From Croceivirga sp. (GTDB lineage Bacteria > Bacteroidota > Bacteroidia > Flavobacteriales > Flavobacteriaceae): a stretch of 64,000 nucleotides of DNA. The first letter of the stretch is position 1; the number at the start of each line of letters is the position of its first letter. Under the pieces are notes generated by a model. That model saw only the letters and a program-made list of their open reading frames with translations, ran no database searches and was not told the DNA's origin. The stretch is from positions 86,730 through 150,729 of the forward strand of contig JANQQQ010000016.1 of NCBI GenBank assembly GCA_028284935.1, in the 5' to 3' direction. Positions 43,898-49,692 of this stretch are shown one piece after another. A program made the translations under genes and the position numbers.

Positions 43898-44644
43898 GTG
43901 TTGCGATTTTTCAAGAATATGGGCCATGCGCTATACCGAATCTGGTTTTACGTATTGGTGGCTGTGCCCATTTTAGTGTTTTCCCCGCTTTTGCTGTTAA
44001 CTACGCTTTCCAATACCACGTACAGCGCTTTTTATTGGTTGGCCCGTAATATATGGGCCAAGACCATTTTGTTTGGGATGGGGTGTTTGCCAAGGATCAA
44101 ATGGAAACAGCAAATGCAATTGGACAAAAGCTATATGTTGGTCGCCAACCATACCAGTATGTTGGATATTATGTTGATGCTTTTTGTTAGTAAAAACCCA
44201 TTCGTTTTTGTGGGGAAACAGGAATTGGCCAAAATTCCTGTTTTTGGGTTTTTTTACAAGCGAGTCTGTATTCTGGTAGATAGGAGCAGTCATAAAAGTA
44301 GATCGGCGGTATATCGCAGTGTTCGTGAACGGCTGGACAGGGGATTGAGCATCTGCATTTTTCCGGAAGCCGGGGTTCCTGATGAAGATATTGTACTGGA
44401 TGCATTTAAAGATGGGGCTTTTAGAATGGCTGCCAACCATAATATACCAATCGTTCCAATTACATTTTTGGATTGTAAGAAGCGGTTTCCTTGGTCTTTC
44501 TTCAATGGCGGCCCTGGCAAACTCCGGGTAACGGTTCACCCCTTTGTGGAAACGGAACTATTAGGTACGGAGGATACGTCCACCATCCGTGAAGAAACAA
44601 GGAGGTTAATTCTGAATGACTTACTGGAAGATCAAAATCCATAA
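43898..44644 (+). CDS. plsC: 1-acyl-sn-glycerol-3-phosphate acyltransferase
   Basis: NHTSMLD (HxxxxD), VDRS and FPEAG motifs. A -7 element TACTTTTG lies just upstream. Confidence 0.88.
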   Translation: MLRFFKNMGHALYRIWFYVLVAVPILVFSPLLLLTTLSNTTYSAFYWLARNIWAKTILFGMGCLPRIKWKQQMQLDKSYMLVANHTSMLDIMLMLFVSKNPFVFVGKQELAKIPVFGFFYKRVCILVDRSSHKSRSAVYRSVRERLDRGLSICIFPEAGVPDEDIVLDAFKDGAFRMAANHNIPIVPITFLDCKKRFPWSFFNGGPGKLRVTVHPFVETELLGTEDTSTIREETRRLILNDLLEDQNP

Positions 44645-44661
44645 GCTATTTTGACACTTCT

Positions 44662-44819
44662 CATTGAGGCAACTTCAATGAAAAAAGGGAAAGGCCCTGA
44701 GACGAAAACAGGGCCTTTGTGTATGCCGTTAAGAACGGCGTACTAACCAACTTCATAAAACATCACGTTCAGGGTTTTTACAAATTCAACGAAATCGATA
44801 GACTAAATCCTGAACGCAG
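44662..44819. other. Four tandem stem-loops between convergent genes, including a bidirectional terminator candidate
   Basis: CATTGA / TCAATG, AAAGGCCCTG / CAGGGCCTTT (44690-44718), GTATGCCGTT / AACGGCGTAC, and CGTTCAGGGTTT / AAATCCTGAACG. Confidence 0.65.
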
Positions 44820-44850
44820 GCCAAGGGTCTTCCCTATTTTTTCCCTCAAC

Positions 44851-46326
44851 TCAAAACCGAAAACTCAAACCACTATATACTCCTATAGTATAGGGCCTAA
44901 AATTCCCAGCGGTTTCAGAAAAGGTATTGAGTTGATATTTAAATATGGGTTCTACATTCAACTGTAATTTTTGGGAAATGTTATAGTTGAAACCAACACC
45001 TAAATTGGTGCTGAAATTAATGTCATTGGCATTATTGGCTTCCCCCATTTCCGTAATTAACTGCTCTGATTCAAGACTTACGGCGTTGTCTACCAAAAAC
45101 AGGGAACTGACACCACCAATAAGGTTGATGCCAAACTTTCTGTCCAGTAGCGCATAGTTGAGCTCCATGGGAACTTCAATATAGCCCAATTGTTGTACCA
45201 TTCTACCTTCGAAAGGCTCGGCAGTTCCTGCGAAAATAGAAGTATTATCTACGCTTTGTACCTCATTACTTTTGCTTTCAACCACTAAATTTCTTGAGGT
45301 TTGCGAATAATTAATATTATCAATGAGCTGATTGGTGGAAGTGGTCAAAGAAGAAGTAAAAACAACATCATTGGTATCATATCCGTAATCTACGCGATGG
45401 ACCCCTGAACGAACACTGAGTTTTTCACTTATATTGTAGGTAACCGTAAGACCGTAGCTTAGGTTGAGATTTCCCGATTTGGAATTAGAGGCAAAATTGG
45501 AGTGTATTGGGGAACCTTCACCAACGGAACCAAAGAATACCGGAGCTACTGAAGGACCCATGGACCATCTTTTTCCAGAATTTTTTGTTATTGCCAGTTC
45601 CTCCTGGTCCTGAAGTTCCTCAATAGCATCAAAGATGGAAATGGTATCCTCTTCATTCCCTTTCTTTTCGGCTGCTGCCACCTCATTTTTTGTTTCAGCT
45701 ATTCCATCTGGATTTAGGGTAGGTTCATTTAGGTTTTCTTCCCTTTGTTTTTTATTGTTTTCTACAATCGAGTTGTCAATATTGGCAGGAATGGCATTGG
45801 AATTCCTTTGTTCTGTTATCGTTAGTTGAGACTCCCGCTCCTGCTTTCGATTATTGGTATTGGTCACCAAGCCATCTTTAGGATTCAATACCTCTTGTTT
45901 GGGTACAAGTACATCTTTTGTTTGGGATTCCATAGAACCCGATGCTTCTTGCGCCGCTCTATTCGAACGTTGATTGGATTCCGTATCGGAAGTACCAACT
46001 ACTTGACTGTCCTGGGATTCCTCAAGGATTTTGGAATCTACAGTGCTATCGTCGATAGCATTGTTGGTGTCCTTAGGGGTATTCTTTTCGGTGTTGACGA
46101 TACTGGGGTCCACCGCATTTTCATTGGTCGAAAATGGGTTGACAAGGTAAAAAAGCAGGGCGAGTGCCGCTGCCGCCCCTCCCAGTTGCCACCAAATAGG
46201 CACAATTCTCTTTTTCTTCCTTTTGTTTAAGGAGGCTTCAATATTCTCCCAAACCCTCTCGTCAGGGGTTTCGGAAAAGTCCTTGAATTTTTCCTTAAAA
46301 AGGTTATCCAAATTATTTTTTCCCAT
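44851..46326 (-). CDS. Putative dual-membrane-spanning anti-sigma factor (N-terminal anti-sigma region, TM, disordered linker, C-terminal OM beta-barrel)
   Basis: DNLFKEKF...VWENIE, basic patch, TM at about aa 41-62, about 190 aa rich in N/S/T/E/D/Q, barrel strands (YIEVPMEL, LGVGFNY), terminal Phe. Directly after an ECF sigma gene. Confidence 0.72.
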   Translation of the reverse strand: MGKNNLDNLFKEKFKDFSETPDERVWENIEASLNKRKKKRIVPIWWQLGGAAAALALLFYLVNPFSTNENAVDPSIVNTEKNTPKDTNNAIDDSTVDSKILEESQDSQVVGTSDTESNQRSNRAAQEASGSMESQTKDVLVPKQEVLNPKDGLVTNTNNRKQERESQLTITEQRNSNAIPANIDNSIVENNKKQREENLNEPTLNPDGIAETKNEVAAAEKKGNEEDTISIFDAIEELQDQEELAITKNSGKRWSMGPSVAPVFFGSVGEGSPIHSNFASNSKSGNLNLSYGLTVTYNISEKLSVRSGVHRVDYGYDTNDVVFTSSLTTSTNQLIDNINYSQTSRNLVVESKSNEVQSVDNTSIFAGTAEPFEGRMVQQLGYIEVPMELNYALLDRKFGINLIGGVSSLFLVDNAVSLESEQLITEMGEANNANDINFSTNLGVGFNYNISQKLQLNVEPIFKYQLNTFSETAGNFRPYTIGVYSGLSFRF

Positions 46327-46336
46327 CTTTACGTGG

Positions 46337-46867
46337 TTAAGCGATGTTTACATTTTCTTTTTCAATTTTTTCCTTCAAAATCATTCTGGCCCTTGCCAAA
46401 TTGGATTTTGATGTTCCAGTAGAGGTTCCCAATAACTCGCTTATTTCTTTATGGGAATATCCATCCAAAACATAAAGGTTAAAAGTGAGTCGATATTTAT
46501 TGGGCAACTCTTGTATGTACTCTAAAAGCCTTGATAGGCTTATGCTTACCGTTTCATTTTCAAGTTCTACCTCATCCCCAATATTCTCATGTACCACATC
46601 CAAGCGTCTTTCCTTGCGATATTTTTGTAAAACAGTGTTCACCGCAATACGTTTCATCCAACCTTCAAAAGAACCTTTATGGTTGTACTGTCCAATCTTG
46701 TCAAAAATGGTCATAAAGGCATCATGAAGGTTATCTTCCGCTTCTGTGCGGTTTCTTGAATACTTCAAGCACATTCCAAAAAGGACCGATGAGTATTTTC
46801 GGTACAATTCTTCCTGCGCCATTCTATTCTGTTCCTTACAGTATTTTATGAGTTCATCCTGACTCAA
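46337..46867 (-). CDS. ECF RNA polymerase sigma factor
   Basis: AEDNLHDAF, FEGWMKRIAVN and YSHKEISELLG...SKSNLARAR motifs. Confidence 0.95.
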   Translation of the reverse strand: MSQDELIKYCKEQNRMAQEELYRKYSSVLFGMCLKYSRNRTEAEDNLHDAFMTIFDKIGQYNHKGSFEGWMKRIAVNTVLQKYRKERRLDVVHENIGDEVELENETVSISLSRLLEYIQELPNKYRLTFNLYVLDGYSHKEISELLGTSTGTSKSNLARARMILKEKIEKENVNIA

Positions 46868-46885
46868 AATGTTGGTTAGTTTGTT

Positions 46886-47314
46886 TTATTCGTTAATTTC
46901 GTCCACAACAGGCACTTGGTACTCTAGATATTGAAGATTTCCGTCAGTATCTTCTCCAGTATAAAATCTAAGGGTATAAATGTCAACGTTTTCCGCTTTG
47001 ACGGTCAAAATACCCGTCAAAGATTCATCGGTAGTGATACAATCTTCCTCCGTGAGCACGGATCCAATAGCAACCACAGTTGTCCGTCCATTCCCTTCTG
47101 AAAACACATCGAAACCTTGAAAAAAAGTACAGTCGTCCGGTCTAGAGAAGCTCACCTCAATGTTGTGCGATTCATTCAACACAAAAAAATCTGGGACATC
47201 CGCTTCAGTAATTTCCATAGAAACAAAATGGAAATTTTCTCCAGTGTCAAGTTCACAATTATAAAAAACCGAACCACATAACACTACCAATGCTATTGCA
47301 AAAATCCTTTTCAT
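46886..47314 (-). CDS. Acidic hypothetical lipoprotein
   Basis: From ATG 47314: lipobox FYN-C followed by ELD, beta-rich, with two further Cys. Confidence 0.75.
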   Translation of the reverse strand: MKRIFAIALVVLCGSVFYNCELDTGENFHFVSMEITEADVPDFFVLNESHNIEVSFSRPDDCTFFQGFDVFSEGNGRTTVVAIGSVLTEEDCITTDESLTGILTVKAENVDIYTLRFYTGEDTDGNLQYLEYQVPVVDEINE

Positions 47315-47399
47315 AATTAAAACAATTGCAGGGTAAAGATGCCCTGAGCACACTTAGGTTGCGTATTTATGGCCTTTTTAGGGAATCAAATGAGGGCAA

Positions 47400-48407
47400 T
47401 TAATCTTTTAGCGTTGCAATGGCCTCTTTTATTTTAGATTCCAACTCCTCGGAAAGTTCAGGATTGTCTTCCAGAAGTCCTTTTACGGCATCCCTTCCCT
47501 GGCCAAGCTTGGTATCCCCATAACTGAACCAAGAGCCGCTCTTTTTAATAATTTCGTAAGAAACCCCTAAGTCCAAAATTTCACCTACTTTGGAAATTCC
47601 TTCCCCGTACATGATATCAAACTCCGCAGTTTTAAAGGGAGGTGCTACTTTGTTTTTTACTACTTTCACACGGGTCTTGTTCCCTTGAACTTCCCCATCC
47701 GTAGATTTTATTTGTGTGGAACGTCTAATGTCCAATCGAACCGAGGCGTAGAACTTTAGCGCATTACCCCCTGTTGTGGTTTCTGGATTCCCAAACATGA
47801 CCCCAATTTTTTCGCGCAATTGGTTGATAAAGATGACCGTGCAATGGGTCTTGCTTATGGTGGATGTCAGCTTTCGCAAAGCTTGCGACATCAGTCGGGC
47901 GTGAAGCCCCATTTTGGAGTCCCCCATTTCCCCTTCAATTTCGCTTTTTGGGGTTAAAGCCGCTACAGAATCTATAATGACGATATCAATGGCCCCAGAG
48001 CGAATAAGATTATCGGCAATTTCCAATGCTTGTTCGCCATGATCGGGCTGGGAAATGATCAGATTATCAATATCAACGCCTAATTTTTGGGCGTAAAATC
48101 GGTCAAAGGCATGTTCCGCATCAATGAAGGCAGCAATCCCCCCTGATTTTTGGGCTTCTGCAATGGCATGCAAGGTCAAGGTCGTCTTACCTGAAGATTC
48201 AGGACCGTATATCTCAATGACCCTTCCCCTAGGATAGCCGCCTACCCCCAACGCTAAATCCAGTCCCAATGATCCAGATGAAATCACCTCAACATCCTCA
48301 ATGACATGGTCCCCCATTTTCATGACGGCACCCTTTCCATAGGTTTTGTCCAGTTTATCCAGGGTCAGTTTTAGGGCTTTTAGCTTCGCTTCTTTGTCGT
48401 TGCTCAT
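47400..48407 (-). CDS. recA: Recombinase RecA
   Basis: [16 protein letters not shown] and [17 protein letters not shown] motifs. Confidence 0.99.
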
Positions 48408-48428
48408 TTTTGCAAGGGATTAGACCTT

Positions 48429-48463
48429 CAAAAATACCACTTATTGTGTATTTTAAAATACCA
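48429..48463 (-). promoter_or_regulatory. recA -7 element with a tandem repeat
   Basis: TATTTTTG (minus strand, 48429-48436). AAAATACCA occurs at 48431 and 48455. Confidence 0.5.
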
Positions 48464-48660
48464 ACGCAACCTTTTTACGAACAGTTCCTCTTTAAAGAGA
48501 CTAATTCAAATAATTTTCAAAGTACCCTTCAGTACTTATGGAAATATATAATGAAAAAGAAAGGATATTGGTCATTAGGCACGTCTCTTGGATGTGCCTT
48601 TTTTATTTGGTTATCTTTGGCCAGCTTTAAATCATCTTTTAACTTAAATATTGGTATAGC

Positions 48661-49692
48661 ATGCAACTGTACAATACATTAAGTGCAAAAGAGAGGGAAA
48701 AATTAATTGAGGATGCAGGCAAAGAACGCCTTACCATTTCCTTCTATCAATACGCACATATTGGGAATCCCCATATTTTTCGAAACCACCTTTTTATACA
48801 TTGGAACGAGCTCGAGGTTTTAGGCAGAATTTATGTGGCCAAAGAGGGCGTCAACGCGCAATTATCTGTTCCAGCGGAGCAATTTGAAGCCTTCAAGGCA
48901 CATTTGGATAGCATCTCGTTTTTGAATGGTGTTCGTCTTAACATTGCCCTTGAACAAGACAATAAATCCTTTTTAAAACTGAAGATCAAGGTGCGGCATA
49001 AGATCGTAGCTGATGGATTAAAGGATGACACCTTTGATGTGACCAACAAGGGCATCCATGTAAATGCTGAGCAGTTCAATCAACTTATTGAAGATCCCGA
49101 AAGTGTTGTGGTGGATATGCGCAATCATTATGAAAGTGAAATTGGTCACTTTGAAAAAGCCATTACTCCTGATGTGGACACCTTTCGTGACTCTTTGGAT
49201 ATTATTGAGGAACAGTTGGCCGAACACAAAGAAGACAAAAAGTTGGTGATGTATTGTACTGGAGGAATCCGTTGTGAAAAGGCCAGCGCCTATTACAAGC
49301 ACAAAGGGTTCAAAAACGTATTTCAATTGGAGGGCGGAATCATAGAATATACCCGTCAAGTGCGCCAAAAAGGATTGGAAAATAAATTCCGGGGCAAAAA
49401 CTTTGTGTTTGACCATAGAAGGGGAGAGCGCATCTCGGATGAAATCATTGCCCAATGTCATCAATGCGGCAAACCTTGTGACACTCATGTCAACTGCGCC
49501 AATGAGGCTTGTCACCTCTTGTTCATTCAATGTGAAGAGTGCGCTAAAAAAATGAATGATTGCTGTTCACAGGAATGTATGGATGTGGTGGCCCTGCCTT
49601 TTGAAGAACAAAAAAAACGCCGTAGGGGTAAACATGCCAGCAATAAAATATTTAAGAAAGGTCGTTCCGAAGTCTTGAAGTTTAAGAATTGA
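48661..49692 (+). CDS. trhO: tRNA uridine(34) hydroxylase (rhodanese-related)
   Basis: GRIYVAKEGVNAQ, DMRNHYE..IGHF, MYCTGGIRCEK and FVFDHR motifs. Confidence 0.9.
   Translation: MQLYNTLSAKEREKLIEDAGKERLTISFYQYAHIGNPHIFRNHLFIHWNELEVLGRIYVAKEGVNAQLSVPAEQFEAFKAHLDSISFLNGVRLNIALEQDNKSFLKLKIKVRHKIVADGLKDDTFDVTNKGIHVNAEQFNQLIEDPESVVVDMRNHYESEIGHFEKAITPDVDTFRDSLDIIEEQLAEHKEDKKLVMYCTGGIRCEKASAYYKHKGFKNVFQLEGGIIEYTRQVRQKGLENKFRGKNFVFDHRRGERISDEIIAQCHQCGKPCDTHVNCANEACHLLFIQCEECAKKMNDCCSQECMDVVALPFEEQKKRRRGKHASNKIFKKGRSEVLKFKN

What the first reader, a model, noticed from the sequence alone, without database searches (positions are those of the whole stretch)
44851..47314. Lipoprotein - ECF sigma - dual-membrane-spanning anti-sigma triad in a flavobacterium
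Seen: a 491-aa protein with a short cytoplasmic helical N-terminus, a non-cleaved TM helix, an ~190-aa polar low-complexity tether and a C-terminal beta-barrel ending in Phe. It lies 10 nt after an ECF sigma gene, which is preceded by a lipoprotein gene. Known: Bacteroides Dma1/Das1 and Reo/EcfO have this architecture, with NigD-like lipoproteins nearby, and control vesiculation and envelope stress. Inference: a free-living counterpart that could sense inner-to-outer membrane distance or OM state; its regulon is unknown.
Basis: partly seen in the sequence, partly recalled or inferred. Interest (0 to 1): 0.7.

Follow-up and report, generated by a model that had tools for sequence, protein, structure and literature searches.

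The report
Envelope-spanning anti-sigma operon in flavobacterium

Summary
On the minus strand, 44851-47314 holds a lipoprotein gene (142 aa), an ECF sigma gene (176 aa) and, 10 nt later, a 491-aa gene.

The 491-aa protein has:
- a 40-aa charged N-terminus;
- one transmembrane helix;
- an acidic, non-conserved linker of about 165 aa;
- a C-terminal outer-membrane beta-barrel (AlphaFold pLDDT 92; best Foldseek matches OmpA, OmpW, NspA) that ends in Phe.

This is the architecture of Bacteroides Dma1/Das1. Its closest detectable Bacteroidales relative is a sigma/anti-sigma pair next to a true NigD gene. Pardue et al. 2024 already reported Dma1 in 27 of 29 Bacteroidota, so this is a new member of a known kind.

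New results here:
1. NigD is absent from this genome, and the operon lipoprotein has no family match.
2. A bipartite promoter, A(C/A)GCAACC-N15-CATC(T/C), lies upstream of the lipoprotein gene in 79 of 79 loci. It occurs once in the 4.2-Mb genome.
3. The second-best genome-wide match is 1.1 kb away and fronts a conserved candidate sRNA of about 105 nt (48498-48605). It has a compensatory terminator, no conserved ORF and no Rfam match.
4. Further motif hits in relatives sit just upstream of small lipoprotein genes.

Sigma binding, dual-membrane localisation and expression were not testable here.

The parts
47337..47364 (-). ECF-type promoter of the operon: ACGCAACC (47364-47357), 15-nt spacer, CATCT (47341-47337). 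It ends 22 nt before the lipoprotein ATG.
   Evidence: A[C/A]GCAACC-N15-CATC[T/C] with an invariant 15-nt spacer is present in 79/79 loci, in an otherwise unconserved intergenic region. It is the only strict match in the 4.23-Mb genome.
46886..47314 (-). First gene: 142-aa lipoprotein. Signal peptide, lipobox Cys20, acidic segment CELDTGEN, and two further conserved Cys (62, 92). No known family.
   Evidence: No Pfam or NCBIfam hit at E<=1. Present between recA and sigma in 78/78 loci at 33-66% identity.
46337..46867 (-). ECF sigma factor, 176 aa (regions 2 and 4), Das-like.
   Evidence: Sigma70_r2 9.7e-13, Sigma70_r4_2 2.8e-15, TIGR02937 1.8e-25. 39% identical over full length to the sigma of a NigD-linked Bacteroidales pair, E 4e-45. 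That sigma's best hit in this genome is this gene.
46207..46326 (-). Anti-sigma residues 1-40: conserved charged cytoplasmic segment (F17, P21, W26, L33 invariant; K/R cluster 34-40). Presumed sigma-binding module.
   Evidence: Alignment A1. 37% identity over 59 aa to the Bacteroidales homologue. The same P..VW..I + K/R + TM pattern occurs in 20/20 distant sigma-adjacent proteins. In B. thetaiotaomicron, residues 1-40 of Dma1 suffice to bind Das1 (PMC10927553).
46138..46206 (-). Residues 41-63: single transmembrane helix (IVPIWWQLGGAAAALALLFYLVN).
   Evidence: Highest Kyte-Doolittle window, 1.71 at residue 41. P43, W45, W46, G49, G50 are invariant.
45637..46137 (-). Residues 64-230: acidic, polar linker that varies in sequence and length (periplasmic tether).
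   Evidence: pLDDT 26-33 in the full-length model. Unalignable with many indels. Across 169 homologues the TM-to-barrel spacer measures 164-270 aa (median 199; that span also includes the conserved helix), is net acidic in 98%, and is 18% hydrophobic.
45580..45636 (-). Residues 231-249: conserved amphipathic helix (SIFDAIEELQDQEE...) just before the barrel.
   Evidence: S230, I231, I235 are invariant. Helix in both models, pLDDT 76-84.
44851..45579 (-). Residues 250-491 plus stop: 8-stranded outer-membrane beta-barrel with short periplasmic turns, a long variable second loop, and C-terminal ...SFRF.
   Evidence: AF2 pLDDT 92.1, pTM 0.83. Foldseek PDB top hits: OmpA TM domain (TMt 0.65), OmpW (0.63), NspA (0.73), Ail, OprG, Pla/OmpT. 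PF13568 at 24 bits here (27.2 in the genome scan) and precomputed in most homologues. C-terminal Phe in 167/169 homologues.
44681..44715 (-). Intrinsic terminator after the operon: GGCCCTG...CAGGGCC followed by TTTCCCTTTTTT.
   Evidence: RNAfold of the 3' region; coordinates.
48464..48491 (+). Second promoter of the same type (ACGCAACC-N15-CCTCT), divergent from recA.
   Evidence: Second-best PWM hit in the whole genome (21.4 bits). GCAACC is present at this place in 72/72 loci, mostly with CATCT or TATCT at N14-15.
48498..48605 (+). Candidate sigma-dependent sRNA (~105 nt): conserved 5' ACTAA(C/T)TCAA, conserved core (C)TATGAAAAAGAAA...GTGGTC (48551-48574), and terminator hairpin plus T-run (48577-48608).
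   Evidence: Core + hairpin (dG -10 to -26) + T-run in 72/73 loci. Terminator also found by the scan. 7 of 9 consensus pairs have compensatory changes. No conserved ORF and no Rfam match. The covariance model finds single copies in at least 32 of 151 genera of the family. A sigma-A -7 box, TATCTTTG at 48612, follows for the downstream gene.

Best explanation
The three genes form one operon, read from a promoter that the operon's own ECF sigma factor recognises (ACGCAACC-N15-CATCT).

How it is built (shown):
- The 491-aa product is a Dma-type anti-sigma factor.
- Its first 40 residues lie in the cytoplasm.
- One helix crosses the inner membrane.
- An acidic disordered chain of at least 160 aa crosses the periplasm.
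- An 8-stranded barrel, ending in an aromatic residue (the usual beta-signal), is presumably inserted in the outer membrane by BAM.

How it most likely works (inferred, by homology to Dma1):
- The N-terminal segment holds the sigma factor at the inner membrane.
- When the outer membrane, barrel assembly or the tether is disturbed, the anti-sigma factor is degraded and sigma is released.

Predicted targets (from the motif):
- Its own operon, giving feedback and more of the 142-aa lipoprotein.
- A ~105-nt small RNA transcribed divergently from recA.
- At least one other small, probably surface-exposed lipoprotein (contig C13:359883-360260).

This genome has no NigD. The output is therefore probably a change in outer-membrane lipoproteins plus post-transcriptional control by the sRNA, rather than the NigD1-dependent vesiculation switch of B. 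thetaiotaomicron.
For: Architecture:
- Composition and hydropathy.
- Conserved N-terminus, TM and barrel against a variable linker.
- Barrel model at pLDDT 92, with only outer-membrane barrels as fold matches.
- Linker never shorter than 164 aa and net acidic in 98% of 169 homologues; C-terminal Phe in 167/169.

Sigma pairing:
- 10-nt gap.
- Sigma directly upstream in 78/78 close loci and 20/20 distant loci across class Bacteroidia.

Link to the Bacteroides system:
- A Bacteroidales locus (L116) has a true NigD (NigD_N 5.7e-16, NigD_C 3.1e-24) next to a sigma 39% identical to ours and a 418-aa anti-sigma.
- That anti-sigma is similar to ours in both N-terminus (37% over 59 aa) and barrel (21% over 220 aa).
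- Both find our genes as best or only hit in this genome.
- Published: Dma1(1-40) binds Das1; full-length Dma1 is in total membranes and C-terminal fragments are in OMVs (PMC10927553).

Taxonomic range: 62 of 75 Bacteroidia genomes have a match, against 5 of 226 other Bacteroidota.

Promoter and regulon:
- Motif in 79/79 loci with a fixed spacer and unique in the genome.
- Next-best PWM hit is the conserved site in front of the candidate sRNA.
- In same-genus genomes the pattern occurs 32 times, against 4 for the reversed control.
- Of 15 extra hits examined (12 same-genus, 3 in another family), 6 lie 2-26 nt upstream of small lipoprotein genes and 2 lie ~170 nt upstream of fasciclin lipoproteins.
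- In more distant Flavobacteriaceae (L093, L094) the motif again precedes a different lipoprotein gene followed by sigma and anti-sigma.
Against: - No experiment or expression data.
- Sigma binding, an uncleaved N-terminus and dual-membrane residence rest on homology to Dma1. I could not retrieve that sequence. The link is through an unnamed Bacteroidales NigD-linked homologue, with weak anti-sigma similarity (E 2e-6 and 2e-5 pairwise).
- Membership of the sigma in group ECF21 could not be scored, because no ECF-group models were available.
- The full-length model was poor (pLDDT 44.7).
- In this window the sRNA promoter has CCTCT rather than CATCT at -10.
- The C13 lipoprotein site has TATCT, and its conservation is shown only in close relatives plus one similar site, ACACAACC-N15-CATCA.
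- That this sigma reads the motif is inferred from autoregulation logic, not shown.
- The Bacteroidales locus lacks this motif.
Confidence: 0.7

Rival explanations
1. The protein is made as one chain but is cut during or soon after biogenesis. An inner-membrane anti-sigma stub and a free outer-membrane barrel would then act separately. There would be no lasting physical bridge, and the signal would be sensed in the periplasm.
For: In B. thetaiotaomicron only C-terminal fragments of Dma1 are found in OMVs, and proteolytic fragments are discussed (PMC10927553). The conserved helix 231-249 next to the barrel could mark a processing or docking site.
Against: Full-length Dma1 was detected with both N- and C-terminal tags in total membranes. 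A linker that is always at least 164 aa and acidic in 169 homologues suggests selection for a spanning tether, not a disposable spacer.
Confidence: 0.12
2. The 491-aa protein is an ordinary outer-membrane barrel protein with an unusually long N-terminal export signal or anchor. It would have no regulatory tie to the neighbouring sigma factor.
For: Databases name the homologues only 'outer membrane beta-barrel protein'. No anti-sigma Pfam domain is detected.
Against: The 40-aa pre-TM segment is conserved, with invariant F17, P21, W26 and L33. It is far longer and more charged than a Sec n-region. The gene follows an ECF sigma gene in 98/98 examined loci across a bacterial class. The N-terminal module alone recurs next to sigma paralogues.
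Confidence: 0.04
3. The conserved ACGCAACC-N15-CATCT element is read by a different sigma factor or bound by another regulator. The RNA element downstream of the second copy would be a 5' leader or attenuator of the rhodanese/TrhO-like gene rather than a free sRNA.
For: No direct evidence links this sigma to the motif. The genome holds about 27 ECF-like sigma paralogues. The RNA lies upstream of, and on the same strand as, the rhodanese gene (48661), so read-through of the terminator is possible.
Against: ECF sigma factors typically autoregulate, and the strict motif is unique to this operon's upstream region in the genome. It travels with the sigma gene even where the first gene differs (L093, L094) or is absent (G319). 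A strong terminator is followed by a sigma-A -7 box, TATCTTTG at 48612, in front of the rhodanese gene. That points to separate transcription units.
Confidence: 0.15

Closest known systems
[quoted passage not shown] 2024, PMC10927553; Dma2: PMC13088901)
   Same: - Same domain order: ~40-aa cytoplasmic segment, TM helix, long disordered linker, C-terminal 8-stranded OMP_b-brl_2 barrel.
- The gene directly follows an ECF sigma gene, with a lipoprotein gene alongside.
- Confined to Bacteroidota.
- Detectable sequence similarity to a NigD-linked Bacteroidales pair (sigma 39% identical).
   Different: - No NigD in the genome, so the published NigD1-dependent vesiculation output cannot apply as such.
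- The adjacent lipoprotein is an unrelated 142-aa family and is the first gene of the operon.
- The predicted regulon contains small lipoproteins and a candidate sRNA.
- The promoter motif found here is not present at the Bacteroidales locus examined.
- Marine, aerobic host.
RseA/sigma-E of E. coli with its sigma-E-dependent sRNAs (MicA, RybB, MicL) (established knowledge, from memory)
   Same: An envelope-stress ECF sigma is held by a membrane anti-sigma factor and autoregulates its operon. It appears also to drive a small terminator-ended RNA with no ORF.
   Different: RseA is an inner-membrane protein with a periplasmic domain; signals from the outer membrane reach it through DegS and unfolded OMPs. 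Here the anti-sigma factor itself carries the barrel. Bacteroidota lack Hfq. The targets of this RNA are unknown.
FecA-FecR-FecI trans-envelope signalling (established knowledge; contrasted in PMC10927553)
   Same: A signal from the outer membrane is passed to an inner-membrane anti-sigma factor that controls an ECF sigma.
   Different: Receptor and anti-sigma factor are two proteins there. Here they are one polypeptide, with a small 8-stranded barrel and no TonB-dependent transporter.
NigD-like lipoproteins (Pfam NigD_N PF12667, NigD_C PF17415)
   Same: A lipoprotein encoded next to the sigma/anti-sigma pair and, by the promoter motif, under sigma control. NigD2 (BT_4719) is likewise induced in the dma1 mutant.
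   Different: No NigD_N or NigD_C match at E<=1. 142 aa against about 260 aa. NigD_N was found in only 3 of 74 sampled Bacteroidia genomes.

Membership tests
[quoted passage not shown] | Short N-terminal cytoplasmic segment (~40 aa) that binds the cognate sigma | tested here: inconclusive
   A segment of exactly 40 aa is present and conserved. It is 37% identical over 59 aa to a NigD-linked Bacteroidales homologue. Binding itself cannot be tested with these tools, and complex modelling is not available.
[quoted passage not shown] | Single alpha-helical TM segment after the N-terminal segment, not removed as a signal peptide | tested here: inconclusive
   One 23-residue hydrophobic helix at 41-63, with the K/R cluster on the N-terminal side. 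Cleavage cannot be tested. The long, conserved, charged N-region argues against a Sec signal peptide.
[quoted passage not shown] | Long intrinsically disordered linker | tested here: met
   pLDDT 26-33 over 66-226. Unconserved with indels. TM-to-barrel spacer of 164-270 aa, acidic, across 169 homologues.
[quoted passage not shown] | C-terminal 8-stranded outer-membrane beta-barrel (OMP_b-brl_2) | tested here: met
   Model at pLDDT 92.1 with 8 long strands. Foldseek hits to OmpA, OmpW, NspA, Ail. PF13568 at 24-27 bits. C-terminal Phe.
[quoted passage not shown] | Encoded next to an ECF21-group sigma factor | tested here: inconclusive
   Adjacency is met: 10-nt gap, and 98/98 loci. Assignment of the sigma to ECF21 could not be scored because no ECF-group models were available. 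The sigma is 39% identical to the sigma of a NigD-linked Bacteroidales pair.
[quoted passage not shown] | Restricted to Bacteroidota | tested here: met
   Within the phylum sample, 62 of 75 class Bacteroidia genomes match, against 5 of 226 from other classes. Named homologues are all Bacteroidota. Other phyla were not scanned specifically.
[quoted passage not shown] | One polypeptide resident in both membranes (fractionation, dual tags) | not testable with these tools
   Needs fractionation of a tagged protein, as done for Dma1 (PMC10927553).
Dma1 regulon / function | Controls vesiculation through NigD1 | tested here: not met
   No NigD_N or NigD_C match anywhere in the 99.99%-complete genome. 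The B. thetaiotaomicron control is positive.
NigD-like lipoprotein (for the 142-aa gene) | NigD_N OB domain plus NigD_C beta-sandwich | tested here: not met
   No Pfam or NCBIfam hit at E<=1. A true NigD (L116) scores 5.7e-16 and 3.1e-24 with the same tool.
ECF sigma factors | Sigma-70 regions 2 and 4 only, about 170-200 aa | tested here: met
   PF04542 9.7e-13, PF08281 2.8e-15, TIGR02937 89.5 bits against a cut-off of 42.9.
Sigma-dependent trans-acting sRNA (for 48498-48605) | Own promoter, no conserved ORF, intrinsic terminator, conserved unpaired core, and expression as a discrete RNA | tested here: inconclusive
   Promoter, absence of an ORF, a terminator with covariation and a conserved core are met.

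The most novel reading that the evidence does not exclude
In Flavobacteriaceae, the Dma-type envelope-spanning anti-sigma system controls a small, sharply defined regulon through the promoter ACGCAACC-N15-CATCT. Besides small surface lipoproteins, the regulon includes a conserved ~105-140-nt sRNA encoded beside recA. That would be a post-transcriptional arm analogous to the sigma-E-dependent sRNAs of Proteobacteria, in a phylum without Hfq and in organisms without NigD.
Probability: 0.5. Interest if true: 0.65.

Novelty: new member of a known kind. Interest (0 to 1): 0.5.

Why it matters
Dma-type anti-sigma factors are the only known regulators that physically join the outer membrane to the cytoplasm in one chain. 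They have been studied only in gut Bacteroides, where the signal is unknown and the output runs through NigD.

This flavobacterial member comes with a near-invariant promoter motif. That turns 'regulon unknown' into a short list that can be tested directly:
- the operon lipoprotein;
- a few small lipoproteins;
- one candidate sRNA.

It also shows that the system exists without NigD. The family's core function is therefore probably more general than NigD-driven vesiculation.

The always-long acidic tether (at least 164 aa in 169 homologues) gives a simple variable to manipulate when testing whether the protein measures envelope geometry.

Tried and rejected
- **Full-length AlphaFold model.** With 29 close homologues it was poor (pLDDT 44.7). 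I re-ran the C-terminal 267 aa with 99 diverse sequences.
- **B. thetaiotaomicron Dma1 sequence.** It could not be retrieved. The link to Dma1 is therefore indirect.
- **ECF21 assignment.** No group models were available. The ECF reclassification paper and the Rhodius 2013 paper, as held, contain no ECF21 motif.
- **Small protein instead of sRNA.** Rejected. ORFs from the conserved ATGAAAAAGAAA differ in frame and length, run through the terminator, are absent in about half of the loci, and the ATG is TTG or GTG in some.
- **Rfam.** No family at E<=1 over 44500-49000.
- **PWM regulon scan of the own genome.** It gave only three credible sites. The relaxed pattern GCAACC-N15-CATC occurs at chance level, 9 hits.
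- **The motif elsewhere.** It is not found at 17 of 20 distant Bacteroidia loci, nor at the Bacteroidales NigD locus, so it is specific to this flavobacterial sigma clade.
- **Literature.** The F. psychrophilum transcriptome paper (PMC9723704) does not mention this motif, recA or this RNA in the passages found.
Full report
**1. What is there**

The minus strand of 44851-47314 carries three tightly packed genes downstream of recA (47400-48407):
- a 142-aa lipoprotein gene (46886-47314);
- a 176-aa ECF sigma gene (46337-46867, TTG start);
- a 491-aa gene (44851-46326) that starts 10 nt after the sigma stop.

The sigma factor has regions 2 and 4 (PF04542 9.7e-13, PF08281 2.8e-15, TIGR02937 89.5 bits).

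The lipoprotein has a signal peptide, an invariant lipobox cysteine (C20), an acidic stretch after it (CELDTGEN) and two more conserved cysteines. It has no Pfam or NCBIfam match at E<=1.

**2. The 491-aa protein**

- Residues 1-40 are 47% charged and end in NKRKKKR.
- Residues 41-63 form the only strongly hydrophobic stretch.
- Residues 65-262 are polar and acidic (net charge -17).
- The C-terminus reads SFRF.

In an alignment of 29 homologues, the first ~63 residues and the last ~260 are well conserved. F17, P21, W26, L33 and the WW-LGG helix are invariant. The region between them cannot be aligned and varies in length.

The family is large. 4161 representative clusters (50% identity) match at E<=1e-3, and 1004 match at E<=1e-30.

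A full-length AlphaFold model was poor (pLDDT 44.7), with pLDDT 26-33 across the linker. The C-terminal 267 residues, modelled with 99 diverse homologues, gave pLDDT 92.1 and pTM 0.83. That model shows:
- a helix at 231-249;
- eight long strands;
- 2-4-residue turns on one side;
- long loops on the other side, the second of which is the variable one.

Foldseek against the PDB returned only outer-membrane barrels. The best target coverage was for 8-stranded ones: NspA (TMt 0.73), OmpA (0.65), OmpW (0.63) and Ail (0.61).

Across 169 homologues:
- the TM-to-barrel spacer (linker plus the conserved helix) is 164-270 aa, median 199;
- it is net acidic in 98% and 18% hydrophobic;
- the last residue is Phe in 167.

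**3. Is it an anti-sigma factor?**

No anti-sigma Pfam domain is detected. The argument rests on association and homology.
- In the 80 best genome loci, spanning Croceivirga, Croceitalea, Flagellimonas/Allomuricauda, Maribacter, Eudoraea, Muriicola, Arenibacter, Ulvibacterium and others, the order recA - lipoprotein - sigma - 491-aa gene holds in all 78 loci with enough flank.
- A profile of the family finds matches in 62 of 75 sampled genomes of class Bacteroidia, but in only 5 of 226 from the rest of the phylum.
- In 20 distant loci taken from that scan, every matching gene lies directly after a paralogue of this sigma factor.
- Those 20 proteins share the N-terminal P..VW..I pattern, a K/R cluster and a TM helix.

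**4. Link to the published system**

Pardue et al. 2024 (PMC10927553) define Dma1 by exactly this architecture. They show that:
- residues 1-40 bind the ECF21 sigma Das1;
- full-length protein is in total membranes, while C-terminal fragments are in OMVs;
- Dma1 homologues occur in 27 of 29 Bacteroidota, from gut to soil.

I could not fetch Dma1 itself. However, among 74 Bacteroidia genomes only three have NigD_N. In one of them (L116), a true NigD gene lies divergent from a sigma gene followed by a 418-aa protein with the same layout.
- That sigma is 39% identical to ours over its full length (E 4e-45), and its best hit in our genome is our sigma.
- The 418-aa protein matches ours in the N-terminus (37% over 59 aa) and in the barrel (21% over 220 aa), and ours is its only hit in the genome.
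- Its named relatives are Bacteroides and Fermentimonas proteins.

I therefore file the gene as a member of the Dma family. Sigma binding, the uncleaved N-terminus and dual-membrane residence remain inferred.

**5. Difference from Bacteroides**

NigD_N and NigD_C have no match anywhere in this 99.99%-complete genome, while the B. thetaiotaomicron control rings. The NigD1-dependent vesiculation switch therefore cannot be the output here.

**6. The promoter**

The recA-lipoprotein spacer (median 88 nt) is unconserved except for one element. A(C/A)GCAACC, exactly 15 nt, then CATC(T/C) is present in 79 of 79 loci, a median of 21 nt before the lipoprotein ATG. In the window it lies at 47364-47337.

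The lipoprotein-sigma gap is short (median 28 nt; 18 nt here), so the three genes are one operon. The element has the form of an ECF promoter ('AAC' at -35, a C/T-rich -10). The strict pattern occurs only once in the 4.23-Mb genome. Autoregulation by the operon's own sigma is the simplest reading; this is an inference.

The same motif also precedes a different lipoprotein gene followed by sigma and anti-sigma in two more distant Flavobacteriaceae (L093, L094). In another family of the order it precedes the sigma gene itself (G319).

**7. Predicted regulon**

A weight matrix built from 75 distinct sites ranks the operon first. The second-ranked site lies only 1.1 kb away, at 48464-48491 on the plus strand, in the recA-rhodanese spacer. 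GCAACC is present there in 72 of 72 loci, mostly followed by CATCT or TATCT at 14-15 nt.

In 15 same-genus genomes the pattern occurs 32 times, against 4 for the reversed control. I examined 15 further hits, 12 in same-genus genomes and 3 in another family of the order:
- six lie 2-26 nt upstream of small lipoprotein genes (137-156 aa, most with an acidic run after the lipobox Cys);
- two lie ~170 nt upstream of fasciclin lipoproteins.

In the own genome, the pattern relaxed to Y at the -10 (YATCT) has one further hit: C13:359837-359864 lies 18 nt upstream of a 126-aa lipoprotein gene (CSDDDDDD...). Its orthologues keep ACGCAACC; a 33%-identical one has ACACAACC-N15-CATCA.

**8. The candidate sRNA**

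Downstream of the second promoter, 72 of 73 loci contain:
- a conserved 5' ACTAA(C/T)TCAA;
- a variable hairpin;
- a conserved core, (C)TATGAAAAAGAAA...GTGGTC;
- a GC-rich hairpin (dG -10 to -26 kcal/mol) followed by a T-run.

In the window this is 48498-48605, with the terminator at 48577-48599.

Supporting points:
- RNAalifold recovers the terminator, and 7 of 9 pairs show compensatory changes.
- ORFs starting at the ATG differ in frame and length, read through the terminator or are missing, and the ATG is not universal. It is not a protein gene.
- A sigma-A -7 box (TATCTTTG, 48612) follows, so the rhodanese/TrhO-like gene has its own promoter.
- Rfam has no match.
- A covariance model finds single copies in at least 32 of 151 genera of the family. 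This is a lower bound, because the filters missed the own genome. The window copy scores 47.6 bits.
- In G295 the RNA lies 2.4 kb from the Dma orthologue.

**9. Verdict**

The thing itself is a new member of a family already reported as phylum-wide. The added value is the promoter, the absence of NigD, and a short predicted regulon of lipoproteins plus a candidate sRNA. These make the system's output directly testable.

Noticed in passing
window 48464-48608 (+): Conserved candidate sRNA (~105 nt) with an ECF-type promoter identical in form to the sigma operon's. It lies between recA and the rhodanese/TrhO-like gene. There is no Rfam family and no conserved ORF. It is present in at least 32 genera of Flavobacteriaceae.
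   Followed up: yes
window 45580-45636 (-), residues 231-249 of the anti-sigma factor: A conserved amphipathic helix (KKSIFDAIxEQ...) sits between the disordered linker and the barrel, with S230, I231 and I235 invariant. It could be a docking or processing element. The Dma papers, in the passages I read, do not mention it.
   Followed up: no
window 44645-44850 (-) versus 46868-46885: The operon's 3' region contains GTTGGTTAGT, complementary to ACTAACCAAC just 5' of the sigma TTG start (0.035 expected by chance). A complement of at least 10 nt between the 3' region and the sigma start region occurs in 17 of 78 related loci, against 2 of 78 after shuffling.
   Followed up: partly
window 43898-44644 (+): A PlsC-type acyltransferase gene (PF01553, 8.5e-24) converges on the operon in 77 of 80 loci and shares the hairpin terminator at 44681-44715. 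Whether the link to phospholipid synthesis means anything is unknown.
   Followed up: no
window 48620-48660 (+), and the same place in L001-L080: The 25-30 nt directly before the rhodanese/TrhO-like ATG (TTCTTTAACTTAAATATTGGTATAGC) are almost invariant across genera. That is unusual for a 5' leader.
   Followed up: no
74 sampled Bacteroidia genomes: Pfam NigD_N matches only 3 of 74 genomes (none in Flavobacteriales). The Dma1 paper calls NigD-like proteins ubiquitous among Bacteroidota.
   Followed up: partly
L082, L085, L088, L091, L099 (distant Bacteroidia loci): In five distant sigma + Dma-like loci, the anti-sigma gene is followed by the same pair: a ~420-440-aa lipoprotein and a ~190-aa exported protein. 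This suggests a second conserved Dma-type module.
   Followed up: no
own genome C36:330339-331417 (+): A sigma paralogue (E 1.7e-27 to this sigma) is followed by a ~210-aa ORF whose N-terminus weakly resembles the anti-sigma N-terminal module (E 0.005) but has no barrel. This may be a short, inner-membrane-only relative.
   Followed up: no
own genome C13:359837-360260 (+): A 126-aa lipoprotein gene (CSDDDDDD after the lipobox, no family) has ACGCAACC-N15-TATCT 18 nt upstream. It is a likely extra member of the regulon.
   Followed up: partly
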